NCBI RefSeq assembly: GCF_000026545.1
Contig: NC_011601.1
Origin: Escherichia coli O127:H6 str. E2348/69
Lineage (GTDB): Bacteria; Pseudomonadota; Gammaproteobacteria; Enterobacterales; Enterobacteriaceae
Length of the DNA stretch: 64,000 nt
Strand: one strand, 5' to 3'
The notes under the pieces are model-generated. The model worked only from the letters and a program-made list of their open reading frames with translations. It did no database searches and was not told where the DNA came from. The position numbers and the translations under genes were made by a program. Of this stretch, positions 1,899-48,369 are shown one piece after another; the first letter of the stretch is position 1; the number at the start of each line of letters is the position of its first letter.

Positions 1899-3152
1899 TT
1901 ATGCGTAAACCGGGTAACGTGCGCAGATGTCGAGAACTTTACCTTTGATGCGCTCGATAACGGCTTCATCATTGATGCTATCCAGCACGTCACACATCCA
2001 GCCAGCCAGTTCTTTCGCTTCGGCTTCTTTAAAGCCACGACGGGTAATCGCCGGAGTACCTACACGAATACCGGAAGTCACAAATGGGCTCTTCGGATCG
2101 TTCGGTACGCTGTTTTTGTTGACGGTGATGTTAGCACGGCCCAGAGCGGCGTCTGCTTCTTTACCGGTCAGGTTTTTATCAACCAGATCAACCAGGAACA
2201 GGTGGTTATCAGTACCACCAGAAACCACTTTGTAGCCGCGTTCGAGGAACACTTCTACCATCGCTTTGGCGTTTTTCGCGACCTGCTGCTGGTAAGTTTT
2301 GAACTCAGGTTCCATTGCTTCTTTCAGAGCAACCGCTTTACCGGCGATTACGTGCATCAACGGACCGCCCTGACCACCAGGGAAAACGGCAGAGTTCAGT
2401 TTTTTGTACAGCTCTTCGCTACCACCTTTCGCCAGGATCAGGCCGCCGCGCGGACCCGCCAGGGTTTTGTGAGTGGTGGTAGTTACTACGTGAGCATGAG
2501 GAACCGGGTTAGGGTAGACGCCAGCGGCAACCAGGCCCGCAACGTGCGCCATATCAACGAACAGGTAAGCACCGATGCTGTCAGCGATTTCACGCATTTT
2601 CGCCCAGTCCACCACGCCGGAATATGCAGAGAAGCCACCGATAATCATTTTCGGTTTGTGTTCTTTGGCTTGTTTTTCCAGATCGGCGTAGTCGATATGA
2701 CCGGTAGCATCGATACCGTAAGGAACGATGTTGTACAGTTTACCGGAGAAGTTAACCGGAGAACCGTGAGTCAGGTGACCGCCATGCGCCAGATTCATAC
2801 CCAGAACGGTATCGCCTGGTTCCAGCAACGCGGTGTAGACCGCAAAGTTAGCCTGGGAGCCGGAGTGCGGCTGGACGTTAGCGTAGTCAGCGCCGAACAG
2901 TTCTTTCGCACGATCGATCGCCAGTTGTTCAACGATATCAACATACTCGCAACCGCCGTAGTAGCGTTTGCCCGGATAACCTTCAGCATATTTGTTGGTC
3001 AGCTGAGAACCCTGCGCCTGCATTACGCGCGGGCTGGTGTAGTTTTCGGAGGCGATCAGTTCGATGTGCTCTTCCTGACGTACTTTTTCCTGCTCCATAG
3101 CCTGCCACAGTTCGGCATCATAATCGGCAATGTTCATTTCACGCTTTAACAT
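1899..3152 (-). CDS. glyA: Serine hydroxymethyltransferase (417 aa)
   Basis: ORF track 1899..3158; translation [70 protein letters not shown] matches GlyA; start taken at the Met giving 417 aa. Confidence 0.97.
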
Positions 3153-3430
3153 CCGCATCTCCTGACTCAGCTAACAATAAAATTTTTGGCCTTTATAGGC
3201 GGTCCTGTTGGACAACGGCGAACAGTATAACCGAATCATTGTGCGATAACAGGTCTTGACAAAGGAATTTACGCAAACGATTACCTTCAGGCTACGCAAG
3301 GCTTTGGAGAATAAAGAGCTTGCAACCGGAAACGGATTTCTTTTCAGGTTTGTGATGCAAATTTTTCACTTCATCACATTCTTTCTGAAAAACACCAAAG
3401 AACCATTTACATTGCAGGGCTATTTTTTAT

Positions 3431-3453
3431 AAGATGCATTTGAGATACATCAA
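3431..3453 (+). promoter_or_regulatory. Candidate NsrR operator in the hmp promoter (aagatgcatttgagatacatcaa)
   Basis: AAGATGCATTT half-site with imperfect inverted partner about 30 bp upstream of hmp ATG; NsrR repression of hmp is established, exact site assignment here is by pattern only. Confidence 0.45.
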
Positions 3454-3479
3454 TTAAGATGCAAAAAAAGGAAGACCAT

Positions 3480-4670
3480 ATGCTTGACGCTCAAACCATC
3501 GCTACAGTAAAAGCCACCATCCCTTTACTGGTGGAAACGGGCCCAAAGTTAACCGCCCATTTCTACGACCGTATGTTTACTCATAACCCAGAACTCAAAG
3601 AAATTTTTAACATGAGTAACCAGCGTAATGGCGATCAACGTGAAGCCCTGTTTAACGCTATTGCCGCCTACGCCAGCAATATTGAAAACCTGCCTGCGCT
3701 GCTGCCAGCGGTAGAAAAAATCGCGCAGAAGCACACCAGTTTCCAGATCAAACCGGAACAGTACAACATCGTCGGTGAACACCTGTTGGCAACGCTGGAC
3801 GAAATGTTCAGCCCGGGACAGGAAGTGCTGGACGCGTGGGGTAAAGCCTATGGCGTACTGGCTAATGTATTTATCAATCGCGAGGCGGAAATCTATAACG
3901 AAAACGCCAGCAAAGCCGGTGGTTGGGAAGGAACTCGCGATTTCCGCATTGTGGCTAAAACACCACGCAGCGCACTTATCACCAGCTTCGAACTGGAGCC
4001 GGTCGACGGTGGCGCAGTGGCAGAATACCATCCGGGGCAATATCTCGGCGTCTGGCTGAAGCCGGAAGGTTTCCCGCATCAGGAAATTCGTCAGTACTCT
4101 TTGACTCGCAAACCGGATGGCAAAGGCTATCGTATTGCGGTGAAACGCGAAGAGGGTGGGCAGGTATCCAACTGGCTGCACAATCACGCCAATGTTGGCG
4201 ATGTCGTGAAACTGGTCGCTCCGGCAGGTGATTTCTTTATGGCTGTCGCAGATGACACACCAGTGACGTTAATCTCTGCCGGTGTCGGTCAAACGCCAAT
4301 GCTGGCAATGCTCGACACGCTGGCAAAAGCAGGCCACACAGCACAAGTGAACTGGTTCCATGCGGCAGAAAATGGCGATGTTCACGCCTTTGCTGATGAA
4401 GTTAAGGAACTGGGGCTGTCACTGCCGCGCTTTACCGCGCACACCTGGTATCGTCAGCCGAATGAAGCCGATCGCGCTAAAGGTCAGTTTGATAGCGAAG
4501 GTCTGATGGATTTGAGCAAACTGGAAGGTGCGTTCAGCGATCCGACAATGCAGTTCTATCTCTGCGGCCCGGTTGGCTTCATGCAGTTTGCCGCGAAACA
4601 GTTAGTGGATCTGGGCGTGAAGCAGGAAAACATTCATTACGAATGCTTTGGCCCGCATAAGGTGCTGTGA
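3480..4670 (+). CDS. hmp: Flavohemoprotein / nitric oxide dioxygenase (396 aa)
   Basis: ORF track 3459..4670; translation from [33 protein letters not shown] with globin, FAD and NAD domains; length 396 aa from ATG at 3480. Confidence 0.97.
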
Positions 4671-41613: not shown

Positions 41614-41937
41614 TTGCGTATTCTTTTTGTCTGTTCGCTATTATTACTTTCTGGATGCAGCCATATGGCTAACGATAGCTGGAGCGGGCAGGATAAAGCT
41701 CAACACTTTATCGCCTCGGCGATGCTTTCCGCCGCCGGAAATGAATATTCACAGCATCAGGGGATGAGCCGGGATCGCAGTGCCATGTTCGGATTAATGT
41801 TCTCTGTCAGTTTGGGGGCGTCAAAAGAGCTTTGGGATAGCCGCCCCGAAGGGAGCGGCTGGAGCTGGAGGGATTTGGCCTGGGATGTCGCCGGTGCAAG
41901 CACCGGCTATACCGTCTGGCAACTGACCCGTCACTAA
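41614..41937 (+). CDS. yfiM: Lipoprotein YfiM (107 aa), TTG start
   Basis: ORF track 41593..41937; lipobox LLLSGCS; TTG at 41614 preceded by ggagg at 41602-41606 gives 107 aa. Confidence 0.85.
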
Positions 41938-43232
41938 AGACGCATCCCCTTCCCTTTGCGATGTAGCATCAAAGAAACCAGAAACGCCACCACGGCCATC
42001 AAGGTCACATACCAGAAGAAGGCTGTTTCCATTCCTATTGATTTCAGCGACAACGCTACGTACTCCGCCGAACCACCAAATATAGCATTAGCGACCGCAT
42101 ATGACAGACCAACGCCTAATGCGCGAACCTGTGCCGGGAACATCTCAGCCTTCAGTATTCCACTGATTGAAGTATAAAAACTCACGATCAGCAGGGCGCA
42201 CATCACCAGACCAAAAGCGGCATAAGGCGAGGAAACGTTCTGCAATGCTGAGAGAATAGGAACGGTAAAAATGGCTGCCAGAGAACCGAAACATAACATT
42301 GAGGTACGACGACCAATCTTATCCGACAGCGCGCCAATAAGTGGTTGAATAAGCATGAATACAAACAATGCGGCAGTCATAATGCCACTCGCCACGTTGG
42401 CATGCATTCCCGCAGTATTTACCAGATACTTCTGCATATAAGTGGTGAAGGTATAGAAACAAAGGGAGCCCGCAGCGGTAAAACCGAGAACCATGATGAA
42501 TGCACGGCGATTGCGCCATAATCCTTTCAGAGATCCAGCTTCTTTTAAAGCGCGTGTTTCTTGTTGTGAAGTTTCATCTAACTGACGACGTAACCACAAC
42601 GCCACAACAGCTAACACAGCCCCTAACGCGAAAGGAATACGCCATCCCCACTCTCTGAGTACAGCGTCTTCCATGGTGTGTTGTAAAACCACGACAACCA
42701 GTAGAGCTAGCAGTTGCCCGCCGATCAACGTCACATACTGAAATGATGCGTAAAAACCTTTGCGCCCTTCAACGGCAACTTCACTCATATAGGTGGCGCT
42801 GGTGCCATATTCTCCGCCAACGGATAATCCCTGGAATAAACGCGCGAGAAGCAATAATGCCGGAGCCCAGGTACCGATTGTTTCGTAGCCTGGCAAACAG
42901 GCGATAACCAGTGAGCCGAAACACATCATACACACCGATAACAACATCGATTTTTTGCGACCATGTTTATCGGCTATGCGGCCAAATAGCCAACCGCCTA
43001 TTGGGCGCATCAGAAATCCTGCAGCAAAAACACCTGCTGTTTGCAGTAGTTGAGTCGTCGTGTTCCCGGAAGGGAAGAAGATGTGGGCGAAGTAGAGTGA
43101 ACAGAACGAGTAGACATAGAAATCGAACCACTCGACCAGATTACCTGAAGAGGCCCCAACAATTGCCCAAATGCGGCGACGAGTATCACTACTTGTCAGT
43201 TTGCTGTCTGCCGTTACAGTACTTTCAGCCAT
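41934..43232 (-). CDS. kgtP: Alpha-ketoglutarate permease, MFS transporter (432 aa)
   Basis: ORF track 41934..43232; 12-TM MFS with metabolite:H+ symporter signature. Confidence 0.96.
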
Positions 43233-43568
43233 GCCATTATGTCTCCTGCCGTAATCCGATGCTTTTGTCGGTCGCTTTTGTTCATTTTTTTGGTAAAGAA
43301 AATGTTATACATTTGTTGCGTATCATTATGCAACCTTAACCATGAATTTAGTTAGCAGGAAAATGGTTATTAAGGAGCTTAAGGATAGATTTCTGGTAAG
43401 GAGGAAGTATGGAAGTGGGCAATTTGGGGAAGACGTATTCGCTGGCGTATGTGGAGGAATAAGCTGCCTCTACCGTGCTTGCGTAGGCCGATGTGATGGA
43501 CACCTCCCGCCTTACGGCATCAATGTGCCAGACTGAGGCGTACCCAGTTCCCAGGTGGAGGTGTCCGT

Positions 43569-44686
43569 CATGAATATTAAGCGTATTGGTCTCGATCTTG
43601 CAAAAACGTTTTTCAGATCCACGGCGTTGATCACCATGAAAAAGTGGTACTGCGAAAAAGGCTGCGCCGTCCCCACATGATGACGTTTTTCTCCGGGCTT
43701 TCTCCCTGCCTCATCGGCATCGAAGCCTGTGGCTCTTCTCATTACTGGGCCCGCGAGCTCACCCGTATGGGCCATACCGTGCGCATTATTCCACCGAAAC
43801 TTGTCAAACCTTATCTCAAAGGTAACAAAAACGACGCCAATGATACAGCCGCCATCTGTGGGGCCATCAGCAGGCCCGGCATGCGATTTGTTGCCCTCAA
43901 ATCGGAAGCCCAGCAGACGCTGCAGGCAGAGCACCGGGTCCGGGTCCGGGTCCGGGTCCGGGTCCGGGTCCGGGTCCGGGTCCGGGTCCGGGTCCGGGTC
44001 CGGGTCCGGGTCCGGGTCCGGGTCCGGGTCCGGGTCCGGGCAAGAATCATCCGCGAGCGAACGGCACTGTGCAATGAAATCCGGGGGCTGTTAAGTGAGT
44101 TTGGTCTGGTGCTGCCCGTGGGGATAAGGCATGTGCGTAAAATCCTGCCGGAAATCCTGTCACAACAGGAGCAGTGGAATGACCGCTTCATCCGTTTGTT
44201 GTGCGAACTGTCAGAGGAAATGCAGATGCTAGATGAACGCATATCGCGTTATGACCGCCGTCCTCATGAGGCTGCAAGGGATGATATCCGTATTAAACGG
44301 CTGATGGAAATAGAGAGTTTTGGCCCGATAGTAGCGAGCGCTTTGTAGCCGCCGTAGGGGATGCGAAGCAATTTAAAAACGGGTGGGAAATGTCAGCCTT
44401 TATTGGGCTGGTTCCGCGACAGCATTCCAGCGGCGGAAAAGAGCGGTTGGGTCATATAAGCAAACGGGGCGACAGTTACCAGAGAACGCTGATAATCCAC
44501 GGTCCCCCCGCAGTACTGAGATTCAGCGCCGGAAAAACAGACAGGCGCAGTCGCTGGCTACAGTCGGTGGCAGAAAGACGCAATAACAATATTGCCGTGG
44601 TGGCGCTGGCAAATAAAAACATCAGGATAGCGTAGGCGATATTAAATCGTGGTGAAGAGTACTGTGGGGTGCCGAATGCGGCGTAA
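43569..44686 (+). pseudogene. IS110-family (DEDD) transposase/recombinase pseudogene: -1 frameshift at A5 run 43601-43605, in-frame 102 bp hexamer expansion, 1 bp deletion near 44345, in-frame TAG at 44633
   Basis: Joined frames read MNIKRIGLDLAK|NVFQIHGVDHHEKVVLRKRLRRPHMMTFFSGLSPCLIGIEACGSSHYWARELTRMGHTVRIIPPKLVKPYLKGNKNDANDTAA...QAEH(RV)17RARIIRERTAL...ESFGPIVASAL|VAAVGDAKQFKNGWEMSAFIGLVPRQHSSGGKERLGHISKRGDSYQRTLIIHG...ANKNIRIA*AILNRGEEY; N- and C-terminal motifs are characteristic of IS110-family recombinases (ORF track 43644..44348 and 44390..44635). Confidence 0.8.
43934..44040. repeat. Perfect hexanucleotide tandem repeat (CCGGGT)x17.8, 107 bp, in frame within the IS110-family tnp pseudogene
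   Basis: Directly visible; encodes (RV)17 in the tnp frame, (GS)n and (PG)n in the other plus frames, (TR)n on the minus strand (see ORF track 43644, 43729, 43811). Confidence 0.98.
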
Positions 44687-44965
44687 ACAGCACTGACCAC
44701 CTTGTAAGTAAACGAGTAATAAACCTGCCGTAAGCGTACAAAGTTATAAAAAACTGATGTGTAACAGGTAAGACCGACATCTGATAAATCCGACCTTATC
44801 CATGGCTCCCTGTAAAGCAAAGCCGGCAGGCCGAAAGGAAACAGATGCGCAGATAACATCATGGCCGGGAACGACGGTACCGTAAGAGAGGCCGGATATA
44901 CGAATGCAACTTACTCCCGTTACACAGATGAAAAATAACTTGCGCAACGGGAGTTGTCCATATAT

Positions 44966-44996
44966 GGATAAGACGTGCCAGCGTCGCATCCGGCAT
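44966..44996. repeat. REP element next to the rrnG terminator
   Basis: Reverse complement gccggatgcgacgctggcacgtcttatcc matches the REP consensus. Confidence 0.7.
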
Positions 44997-45013
44997 TTAT
45001 TCCGCACCAACGC

Positions 45014-45054: not shown

Positions 45055-45174
45055 ATGCCTGGCAGTTCCCTACTCTCGCATGGGGAGACCCCACACTACC
45101 ATCGGCGCTACGGCGTTTCACTTCTGAGTTCGGCATGGGGTCAGGTGGGACCACCGCGCTAAGGCCGCCAGGCA
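45055..45174 (-). rRNA. rrfG: 5S ribosomal RNA (120 nt)
   Basis: Reverse complement reads TGCCTGGCGGCCTTAGCGCGGTGGTCCCACCTGACCCCATGCCGAACTCAGAAGTGAAACGCCGTAGCGCCGATGGTAGTGTGGGGTCTCCCCATGCGAGAGTAGGGAACTGCCAGGCAT; operon named rrnG by synteny (kgtP/clpB flanks). Confidence 0.97.
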
Positions 45175-45272: not shown

Positions 45273-48176
<2,904 letters not shown>

Positions 48177-48369
48177 TCACAACCCGAAGATGTTTCTTGC
48201 GATTCATCATCGTGCTGCGAAAATTTGAGAGACTCACGAACAACTCTCGTTGTTCAGTGTTTCAATTTTCAGCTTGATCCAGATTTTTAAAGAGCAAATA
48301 TCTCAAACATCACCCGAAGATGAGTTTTGAGATATTAAGGCAGGTGACTTTCACTCACAAACCAGCAAG

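What the first reader, a model, noticed from the sequence alone, without database searches (positions are those of the whole stretch)
43934..44040. Perfect (CCGGGT)x17 hexanucleotide microsatellite embedded in frame in the IS110-family recombinase gene
A 107 bp run of perfect CCGGGT units is very unusual for an enterobacterial chromosome. It is in frame and adds an (Arg-Val)17 tract between ...QAEH and RARIIRERTAL; the flanking sequence looks like a single RV-RA motif, so about 16 units appear to have been gained by slipped-strand expansion. Because the unit is 6 bp, length changes would not switch the frame, so this looks like a VNTR-type hypermutable locus rather than an on/off phase switch. 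The same tract on the minus strand encodes (Thr-Arg)n and is GC-rich with CCGG sites, which could affect local structure or methylation.
Basis: seen in the sequence. Interest (0 to 1): 0.6.

Follow-up and report, generated by a model that had tools for sequence, protein, structure and literature searches.

The report
Hexanucleotide VNTR in dead IS110 copy
A perfect 6-bp repeat inside a dead insertion-sequence gene of the E. coli E2348/69 lineage is a real, fast-changing length marker made by replication slippage, an ordinary kind of bacterial repeat with no sign of a function.

Summary
Window 43934-44040 is a perfect (CCGGGT)x17.83 tract, far beyond any other simple repeat in the window. The window is E. 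coli O127:H6 E2348/69.

The tract lies in a single-copy IS110-family element inserted between kgtP and the 5S rRNA gene of the adjacent rRNA operon (rrnG by K-12 synteny). Only 7 of 5,426 complete E. coli genomes carry it there.

Intact and diverged copies of the same IS all have CCGGGTCCGGG (1.83 units), which encodes the conserved H-R-V-R motif. None of 120 homologues has an RV tract.

At this one locus I found perfect alleles of 1.83, 2.83, 3.83, 5.83, 6.83, 7.83, 8.83, 9.83, 17.83 and 18.83 units, plus 4.83 inferred from protein records. The flanks are more than 99.5% identical, and different lengths occur on each flanking haplotype. It is therefore a genuine hypermutable VNTR.

Two -1 frameshifts and a TAG stop are shared by every allele examined, including the unexpanded one, so inactivation preceded expansion and the (Arg-Val)17 tract has no recombinase to affect.

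Six-bp VNTRs of this length are well documented in E. coli O157:H7. This is a new member of a known kind, of low to moderate interest.

The parts
43934..44040 (+). Perfect (CCGGGT)x17.83 hexanucleotide VNTR. 96 bp (16 units) are extra relative to the ancestral 11-bp CCGGGTCCGGG.
   Evidence: TRF; sequence; alleles of 1.83-18.83 units at the same locus; ancestral state.
43570..44686 (+). IS110-family (DEDD/RuvC-like plus Transposase_20) recombinase pseudogene. It runs from ATG 43570 to the original TAA at 44684-44686. RefSeq annotates 43570-44635 as 'IS110 family transposase, frameshifted'.
   Evidence: Annotation. The reconstructed 340-aa product hits PF01548 (residues 6-145) and PF02371 (211-288). 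It is 95% identical to the intact 340-aa homologue P0001.
43602..43606 (+). Lesion 1: a -1 frameshift. An A5 run stands where the intact copy has A6 (codon 11).
   Evidence: Alignment to intact gene L010. Present in every carrier that covers the site.
44343..44346 (+). Lesion 2: a -1 frameshift. One G is missing relative to the intact copy (codon 227). The local ORF then ends at TAG 44346-44348.
   Evidence: ORF list. Present in all carriers, including the 1.83-unit allele.
44633..44635 (+). Lesion 3: a TAG stop where homologues have Trp (…NIRIA*AILNRGEEY against …NIRIAWAILNRGEEY).
   Evidence: Sequence; homologue sequences. In L003 and L006 the 25-nt diagnostic string did not match because of an adjacent SNP at 44631, so the TAG was not confirmed directly in those two.
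43483..44967 (+). The whole IS110-family element, about 1.39 kb without the expansion. Independent copies begin to match at 43483 (GTAGGCCGAT...). K-12 homology stops at 43444 and resumes at 44968. The true left end lies between 43483 and 43492.
   Evidence: blastn against the K-12 empty site and other copies; junction alignments.
44966..45000 (.). REP-like sequence at the right junction (GGATAAGACGTGCCAGCGTCGCATCCGGC). Together with GTAGGCCG at the left junction it looks like one REP split by the IS.
   Evidence: That this is a REP rests on my knowledge of the REP consensus, so it is an inference.
41934..43232 (-). kgtP (alpha-ketoglutarate permease), the left neighbour.
45057..45172 (-). 5S rRNA gene of the adjacent rRNA operon (rrnG by synteny with K-12), the right neighbour.
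   Evidence: Rfam; annotation.

Best explanation
The tract is a selectively neutral, slippage-driven hexanucleotide VNTR that arose inside a decayed insertion sequence.

An IS110-family element inserted once, into a REP-like sequence between kgtP and the 5S rRNA gene, in an ancestor of the E2348/69-related EPEC lineage. Two -1 frameshifts and a nonsense mutation inactivated it.

The codons for its conserved His-Arg-Val-Arg motif happen to read C-CGG-GTC-CGG-G, an 11-bp proto-microsatellite of 1.83 units. Once the gene was no longer under selection, rare slipped-strand mispairing during replication added whole 6-bp units. Mispairing is probably helped by the GC-rich imperfect hairpins that both strands can form.

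Each added unit makes further slippage more likely. The tract now changes much faster than point mutations accumulate and stays sequence-pure. It reached 17-18 units in E2348/69. It does not switch any gene on or off and has no demonstrated function.

Shown: the tract, its polymorphism, the ancestral state, the pseudogene lesions and their order relative to expansion. Inferred: polymerase slippage as the mechanism, neutrality, and the role of hairpins.
For: - Allelic ladder at one locus. Perfect tracts of 1.83 (L134, L135), 2.83 (L136-138), 3.83 (L139-141), 5.83 (L133), 6.83, 7.83, 8.83, 9.83 (L007, L006, L004, L003, L132), 17.83 (window, L001, L002) and 18.83 (L005) units were read from DNA. 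The 1.6 kb around them is more than 99.5% identical. 4.83 and 5.83 units also follow from proteins P0129, P0131, P0139, P0121 and P0132.
- Same synteny for the low-copy alleles, pssA-yfiM-kgtP | IS.
- Length varies within every haplotype. E2348/69 assemblies show 17.83 against 18.83 with 0 SNPs in 4.3 kb. A25 and DCE7 show 9.83 against 7.83 with 0 SNPs. Two Korean isolates show 8.83 against 6.83 with 1 SNP. Three protein-level haplotypes each carry several lengths.
- Ancestral state of 1.83 units in intact or independent copies. It is stable: 57 genomes sampled across about 209 carrying the 87%-identical relative all span exactly 301 bp.
- No homologue has an RV tract.
- Both frameshifts and the TAG are already present in the 1.83-unit allele.
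- Both strands fold into a full-length imperfect hairpin, -36.2 and -35.5 kcal/mol against about -29.4 for shuffles (z = -3.7 and -2.5).
- Behaviour matches measured E. coli 6-bp VNTRs: whole-unit changes, 4.4e-5 to 1.8e-3 per generation, faster above about 13 units, 59% insertions (PMC3777172).
Against: - No mutation rate was measured for this locus.
- Alleles of 10-16 units were not found, so a single large jump, or unequal recombination, on the way to 17-18 units cannot be excluded.
- Several low-copy alleles come from short-read draft or metagenome assemblies. Tracts of 35 bp or less should assemble correctly, but I could not check reads.
- Neutrality is inferred from the pseudogene state and intergenic-like position. 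It was not tested, and expression of the 234-aa ORF that contains the tract was not examined.
- The one-unit difference between E2348/69 assemblies could be a sequencing error rather than a real change.
Confidence: 0.87

Rival explanations
1. Assembly or sequencing artefact: the long perfect tract does not exist, or does not have this length, in the real chromosome.
For: Two assemblies of the 'same' strain differ by one unit (17.83 against 18.83). Exact look-ups for ORF products with 17 or 18 RV units found no independent record. Raw reads could not be inspected.
Against: The tract occurs at the same place in 7 complete genomes from different laboratories, hosts and countries, always perfect and always differing by whole units. 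It also occurs in metagenome and draft assemblies. At 107 bp it is shorter than ordinary read lengths, so collapse or inflation is unlikely (inference).
Confidence: 0.03
2. Native low-complexity linker: the IS110 subfamily naturally encodes an Arg-Val repeat at this position, and the tract belongs to a working recombinase.
For: The tract is locally in frame, and its unit is a multiple of 3.
Against: All 120 best homologues are 336-347 aa apart from a few fragments and one protein with an N-terminal extension. They carry a single H-R-[V/I]-R, and the longest RV/VR run is 4 residues. Intact copies have 1.83 units. The gene here has two frameshifts and a stop. The motif (His122) lies inside the DEDD catalytic domain, Pfam residues 6-145.
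Confidence: 0.01
3. Functional repeat: tract length is under selection. It might act as a DNA structure (hairpin, cruciform or G-quadruplex: the + strand is G3-N3 repeated 18 times) that affects replication or transcription next to the rRNA operon or kgtP. Alternatively, the 234-aa ORF might yield an Arg-rich dipeptide-repeat product.
For: Both strands have strong hairpin potential. The sequence itself matches the canonical G-quadruplex motif. An ORF of 234 aa spans the tract. E2348/69 stands out at 17-18 units while close relatives have 1.83-3.83.
Against: Lengths scatter over 1.83-18.83 with no preferred value and vary within each haplotype, as expected for drift. The tract lies more than 700 bp from the kgtP start codon and about 1 kb beyond the 5S gene at the 3' end of the rRNA operon, inside a dead mobile element. 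No expression or fitness data exist.
Confidence: 0.05
4. Expansion by RecA-dependent unequal recombination or gene conversion rather than polymerase slippage.
For: The gap between 9.83 and 17.83 units could reflect one large step. Multi-unit events of up to 23 units are reported at the O157-10 locus (PMC3777172).
Against: The ladder of single-unit steps from 1.83 to 9.83, and 17.83 against 18.83. Tracts of 113 bp or less give very little homology for RecA (established knowledge, not tested here). There is only one copy of the element per genome.
Confidence: 0.04

Closest known systems
Hexanucleotide VNTR loci of E. coli O157:H7 used in MLVA (TR3, TR4, TR7, O157-3, O157-10 and others)
   Same: Same species and same unit length (6 bp). 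Alleles differ by whole units. Arrays reach more than 15-20 units. Long alleles are more unstable and there is a slight insertion bias (PMC3777172). The locus here shows the same whole-unit ladder and variation within a haplotype.
   Different: This is a different locus and lineage. It sits in an IS110 pseudogene at kgtP-rrf and is present in only 7 of 5,426 complete genomes, so it cannot belong to a generic E. coli scheme. I found no paper describing it. No rate has been measured here.
Simple-sequence contingency loci (phase-variable genes of Haemophilus, Neisseria, Campylobacter)
   Same: A hypermutable tandem repeat located within a coding frame, changing by slipped-strand mispairing.
   Different: The unit is a multiple of 3, so no frame switching occurs. 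The host gene is already dead, with two frameshifts and a stop that predate expansion. No surface or restriction-modification gene is involved.
IS110-family (bridge/seek-RNA-guided) recombinases such as IS621 and ISCro4
   Same: The host gene has the DEDD_Tnp_IS110 and Transposase_20 domains and is annotated 'IS110 family RNA-guided transposase' in RefSeq. The element sits in a REP-like target, as I recall is reported for IS621.
   Different: Only weak similarity, restricted to the C-terminal domain, to the solved IS621 and ISCro4 proteins (E = 1e-5 and 7e-7). The copy is inactive. The long non-coding part lies 3' of the gene (280 nt) rather than 5' (87 nt), which looks more like the IS1111 layout. 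No guide RNA was demonstrated.
(CCGGGT)n tracts in high-GC bacteria and archaea
   Same: The same hexamer, perfect, with at least 5 units in at least 120 stretches of species-representative genomes. One reaches 19.5 units.
   Different: Those lie in loci of at least 58% GC (median 71%), mostly in long ORFs as Gly-Pro, Asp-Pro, Gly-Ser, Arg-Val or Arg-Thr repeats. None is next to an IS110 homologue. No Enterobacterales appear among the loci listed.

Membership tests
Bacterial VNTR / microsatellite (SSR) locus | Head-to-tail tandem copies of a short unit | tested here: met
   Period 6, 17.8 copies, 100% matches.
Bacterial VNTR / microsatellite (SSR) locus | Copy number differs between strains at the same locus, in whole units, with conserved flanks | tested here: met
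   Alleles of 1.83-18.83 units. The immediate flanks are identical in the seven complete genomes and in L132, with one flank SNP in L133. Surroundings are more than 99.5% identical, and low-copy alleles share the synteny.
Bacterial VNTR / microsatellite (SSR) locus | Mutates faster than surrounding sequence | tested here: met
   Lengths differ by 1-2 units between genomes with 0-1 SNPs in 4.3 kb, and several lengths occur on each haplotype. The absolute rate was not measured.
Published E. coli MLVA schemes | The locus is one of the described typing loci | tested here: inconclusive
   No paper in the searchable library mentions this locus or sequence. Key MLVA papers are in subscription journals that were not searched. 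Presence in only 7 of 5,426 genomes argues against use in a generic scheme.
Phase-variable contingency locus | Repeat changes shift the reading frame or promoter spacing of a functional gene | tested here: not met
   A 6-bp unit keeps the frame. The gene is a pseudogene irrespective of tract length.
IS110 family (host element) | N-terminal DEDD (RuvC-like) domain plus C-terminal Transposase_20 domain | tested here: met
   PF01548, residues 6-145, E = 2.8e-13. PF02371, residues 211-288, E = 2.3e-19. Both on the frameshift-corrected protein.
IS110 family (host element) | Intact recombinase reading frame, meaning a potentially active copy | tested here: not met
   Two -1 frameshifts and a TAG relative to the intact 95%-identical copy. 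RefSeq marks it 'frameshifted'.
IS110 family (host element) | Non-coding guide (bridge/seek) RNA encoded in the element's end | tested here: inconclusive
   The 280-nt 3' non-coding region is 93% identical to that of intact copy L010. There is no Rfam match, and the fold is not better than shuffles (z = -1.0).

The most novel reading that the evidence does not exclude
The tract is not neutral. Its expansion to 17-18 units in E2348/69 creates a stable hairpin or G-quadruplex-forming block, or an expressed Arg-rich dipeptide-repeat peptide from the 234-aa ORF. This would measurably affect replication or transcription at the junction between kgtP and the rRNA operon, or cell physiology, making length variation a tunable trait in the prototype EPEC strain.
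Probability: 0.04. Interest if true: 0.55.

Novelty: new member of a known kind. Interest (0 to 1): 0.22.

Why it matters
The practical value is modest.

- The locus is a ready-made, highly discriminating length marker for the E2348/69-related EPEC lineage. It could distinguish laboratory sub-lines of the prototype strain, since two assemblies already differ by one unit.
- It is a clean natural example of how a microsatellite is born. An 11-bp proto-repeat imposed by a conserved protein motif stays fixed at 1.83 units in hundreds of genomes. It then runs away stepwise to 18.83 units in one copy, where the gene was already inactivated.
- Every rung from 1.83 to 9.83 units still exists in nature on near-identical flanks. 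This makes the locus a convenient system for measuring length-dependent slippage thresholds in E. coli.

It does not reveal a new mechanism or a new kind of element.

Tried and rejected
- Native RV linker. Rejected: 120 homologues have none.
- Recurrent hotspot in IS110 genes of other species. Rejected: tblastn of the recombinase against the 120 loci with (CCGGGT) of 5 units or more found no hit.
- Expansion in the 87%-identical E. coli relative near ugpB. Not seen in 57 genomes sampled across about 209.
- Filling the 10-16-unit gap and finding independent records of the 17- and 18-unit alleles. Exact look-ups of ORF products with 6-25 RV units were all negative (ATG start; 65, 66, GTG start given as M). 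Searches were flawed because a DNA reference translates GTG as V. These nulls are uninformative, because the 17-unit allele certainly exists. Long alleles are probably annotated as pseudogenes.
- Literature. Searches for E2348 plus VNTR, for the repeat string (which returned only synthetic GPGPG vaccine linkers), for in-vitro evolution of E2348/69, and for kgtP plus MLVA found nothing on this locus. The Microcolony-seq EPEC paper mentions a different microsatellite, in lrhA.
- Mapping the HRVR motif onto solved IS621 and ISCro4 structures. Only the C-terminal domain aligns by sequence.
- Guide RNA in the IS ends. No Rfam hit and a non-significant fold.
- Strand asymmetry of hairpin stability as an explanation for expansion bias. 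The two strands fold about equally well (-36.2 against -35.5 kcal/mol), so no asymmetry argument can be made.

Full report
**Observation.** Tandem Repeats Finder reports one outstanding array in the window: 43934-44040, period 6, 17.8 copies, 100% matches, no indels, score 214. The next-best array scores 48. The sequence reads ...GCAGAGCA(CCGGGT)17CCGGG CAAGAATCATCC.... No other perfect repeat of unit 1-9 bp in the 64 kb exceeds 18 bp.

**Where it is.** The region is 100% identical to E. coli O127:H6 E2348/69, accession NZ_LT827011. The tract lies in a gene that RefSeq annotates as 'IS110 family transposase, frameshifted'. Its neighbours are kgtP (minus strand) and the 5S-23S-16S rRNA operon (minus strand). 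Compared with the K-12 empty site, about 1.5 kb (window 43445-44967) replaces 23 bp. Independent copies of the same IS begin to match at 43483. The junctions look like the two halves of a REP sequence, GTAGGCCG | GATAAGACG...; that this is a REP is my inference from the consensus. The element is single-copy. It occupies this site in only 7 of 5,426 complete E. coli genomes.

**The host gene is dead.** I reconstructed a 340-aa product by correcting the frame. It hits Pfam DEDD_Tnp_IS110 (residues 6-145) and Transposase_20 (211-288). It is 95% identical to an intact 340-aa homologue, P0001. Alignment to that intact gene (L010) shows three lesions:
- a -1 frameshift in an A run at 43602-43606 (codon 11);
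- a -1 frameshift at about 44344 (codon 227);
- a TAG at 44633-44635 where homologues have Trp.

So the tract is 'in frame' only within the local 234-aa ORF (43644-44348). There is no functional recombinase for an Arg-Val tract to modify. The tract starts at the third base of His122, in the conserved H-R-V-R motif inside the DEDD domain.

**Ancestral state.** Three independent copies of the IS all read CA(C/T) CGG GTC CGG GCC, that is CCGGGTCCGGG or 1.83 units. They are an intact copy from a Logan assembly (L010), a copy in another E. coli draft genome (L011) and the 87%-identical relative next to ugpB (L008). I sampled 57 genomes evenly across the roughly 209 that carry the relative. All span exactly 301 bp for a 301-bp query, so none has expanded. 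Among the 120 best homologues in a 5.8-billion-protein collection, the motif is always a single H-R-[V/I]-R, and the longest RV/VR run is 4 residues. Lengths are 336-347 aa apart from a few fragments and one protein with an N-terminal extension.

**It is a true VNTR.** The seven complete genomes carry 6.83, 7.83, 8.83, 9.83, 17.83 (twice) and 18.83 units, all perfect and with identical immediate flanks.
- A protein search with the tract-containing ORF found a cluster of 27 E. coli sequences, including strains named DEC1E, DEC2C, 2362-75 and TW07793. These have 1, 2, 3, 4 or 5 RV units and the same frameshift-truncated C-terminus.
- Their contigs show the same pssA-yfiM-kgtP | IS synteny.
- A flank-anchored scan of metagenome contigs added alleles of 9.83 and 5.83 units.
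- With the repeat collapsed, all 17 loci are at least 99.5% identical to the window over 1.6 kb. The 1.83-unit allele (L134, L135) differs by a single base from E2348/69 and includes the kgtP-side junction.

The full series is 1.83, 2.83, 3.83, 4.83 (protein records only), 5.83, 6.83, 7.83, 8.83, 9.83, 17.83 and 18.83 units, all pure where the DNA was read.

**Length changes much faster than substitutions.** Three comparisons within flanking haplotypes show this:
- E2348/69 assemblies: 17.83, 17.83 and 18.83 units with 0 SNPs in 4.3 kb.
- Monkey isolate A25 and pig isolate DCE7: 9.83 against 7.83 with 0 SNPs.
- Two Korean human isolates: 8.83 against 6.83 with 1 SNP.

In addition, three protein-level flank haplotypes each carry several lengths.

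**Order of events.** Both frameshifts and the TAG-containing segment are present in the unexpanded 1.83-unit allele and in every other allele that covers those sites. In L003 and L006 the TAG diagnostic string failed only because of a neighbouring SNP. The gene was therefore inactivated first, and the tract expanded afterwards. This fits relaxed selection on a motif-encoding proto-repeat (inference).

**Mechanism.** The pattern is the signature of slipped-strand mispairing: whole-unit steps, purity, a stable sub-threshold proto-repeat and instability that grows with length.
- Both strands can fold into a full-length imperfect hairpin: CCGG paired, with two mismatches per unit. The energies are -36.2 and -35.5 kcal/mol against about -29.4 for shuffles. 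Such hairpins would stabilise slipped intermediates. Because the two strands are about equal, no strand-bias argument is justified.
- The + strand also matches the G3-N3 G-quadruplex motif 18 times. This is seen in the sequence and was not tested.
- GC skew is negative on the + strand throughout the window, and the rRNA operon is on the minus strand. The + strand is therefore probably the lagging strand (inference).
- Measured behaviour of E. coli O157:H7 6-bp VNTRs matches: whole-unit changes, 4.4e-5 to 1.8e-3 per generation, higher rates above about 13 units, 59% insertions and alleles above 22 units (PMC3777172).

**How unusual is it?** The tract is unusual within this genome, and it is among the longest of its sequence type. 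All lie in loci of at least 58% GC (median 71%), mostly Streptomyces and other actinomycetes. Only one is longer, at 19.5 units. Those tracts sit mostly in long ORFs as dipeptide repeats. None is near an IS110 homologue, so the HRVR codons are not a recurrent hotspot. As a class, however, long hexanucleotide VNTRs in E. coli are well known.

**Literature.** No paper in the searchable library describes this locus. Subscription-journal MLVA papers were not searchable.

**Rivals.**
- An assembly artefact is very unlikely given many independent assemblies, although the exact E2348/69 count (17.83 against 18.83) needs reads or PCR.
- A native linker is refuted.
- A functional DNA structure or peptide is not excluded but has no support. 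Lengths scatter without a preferred value.
- Unequal recombination could account for the unfilled 10-16-unit gap, but it is not needed for the single-step ladder.

**Verdict.** The important correction is that it sits in a pseudogene that died before the expansion. It is a new member of a known kind. Its value lies in lineage or strain typing and as a tidy natural example of microsatellite birth, and its interest is low to moderate.

Noticed in passing
window 43445-43492 and 44960-45000: The IS110-family element appears to be inserted in a REP-like sequence: GTAGGCCG(A) at the left junction and GGATAAGACGTGCCAGCGTCGCATCCGGC at the right. Three independent copies (window, L011, L008) share sequence from GTAGGCCGAT onward, so the IS end and the target cannot be separated.
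   Followed up: partly
window 44687-44967: A 280-nt non-coding stretch lies 3' of the recombinase stop, against only 87 nt 5' of the ATG. It is 93% identical to the intact copy L010. This IS1111-like layout makes it a candidate region for the guide (bridge/seek) RNA. There is no Rfam match, and the fold is no better than shuffles (z = -1.0).
   Followed up: partly
L005 (NZ_CP059840.2) 1955-2067 compared with window 43934-44040: Assemblies of the same strain, E2348/69, differ by one repeat unit (18.83 against 17.83) with no SNP in 4.3 kb of flank. This is either real drift between laboratory stocks or a sequencing difference.
   Followed up: partly
L012-L131 (species-representative genomes): Perfect (CCGGGT)n tracts of 5-19.5 units occur in at least 120 stretches of high-GC bacterial and archaeal genomes (truncated list). 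They lie mostly inside long ORFs as Gly-Pro, Asp-Pro, Gly-Ser, Arg-Val or Arg-Thr repeats, and some genomes have several.
   Followed up: partly
L008 (NZ_CP013025.1) 2588-3589 and about 209 other E. coli genomes: An 87%-identical relative of this IS sits next to ugpB in about 4% of complete E. coli genomes, many of them avian isolates. It is also annotated as frameshifted or carrying an internal stop. Homology to the window copy ends at window 44308, so its 3' part is diverged or rearranged.
   Followed up: no
protein P0002 (homologue, 94% identical): This otherwise intact homologue has H-R-G-R instead of H-R-V-R at the proto-repeat, a point change within the motif that seeds the microsatellite.
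   Followed up: no
window 48184-48292 (minus strand): An Rfam StyR-44 match (120.8 bits) lies immediately upstream of the 23S rRNA gene (5' end at 48176, minus strand), between it and the spacer tRNA. It looks like an ordinary feature of enterobacterial rRNA operons.
   Followed up: no
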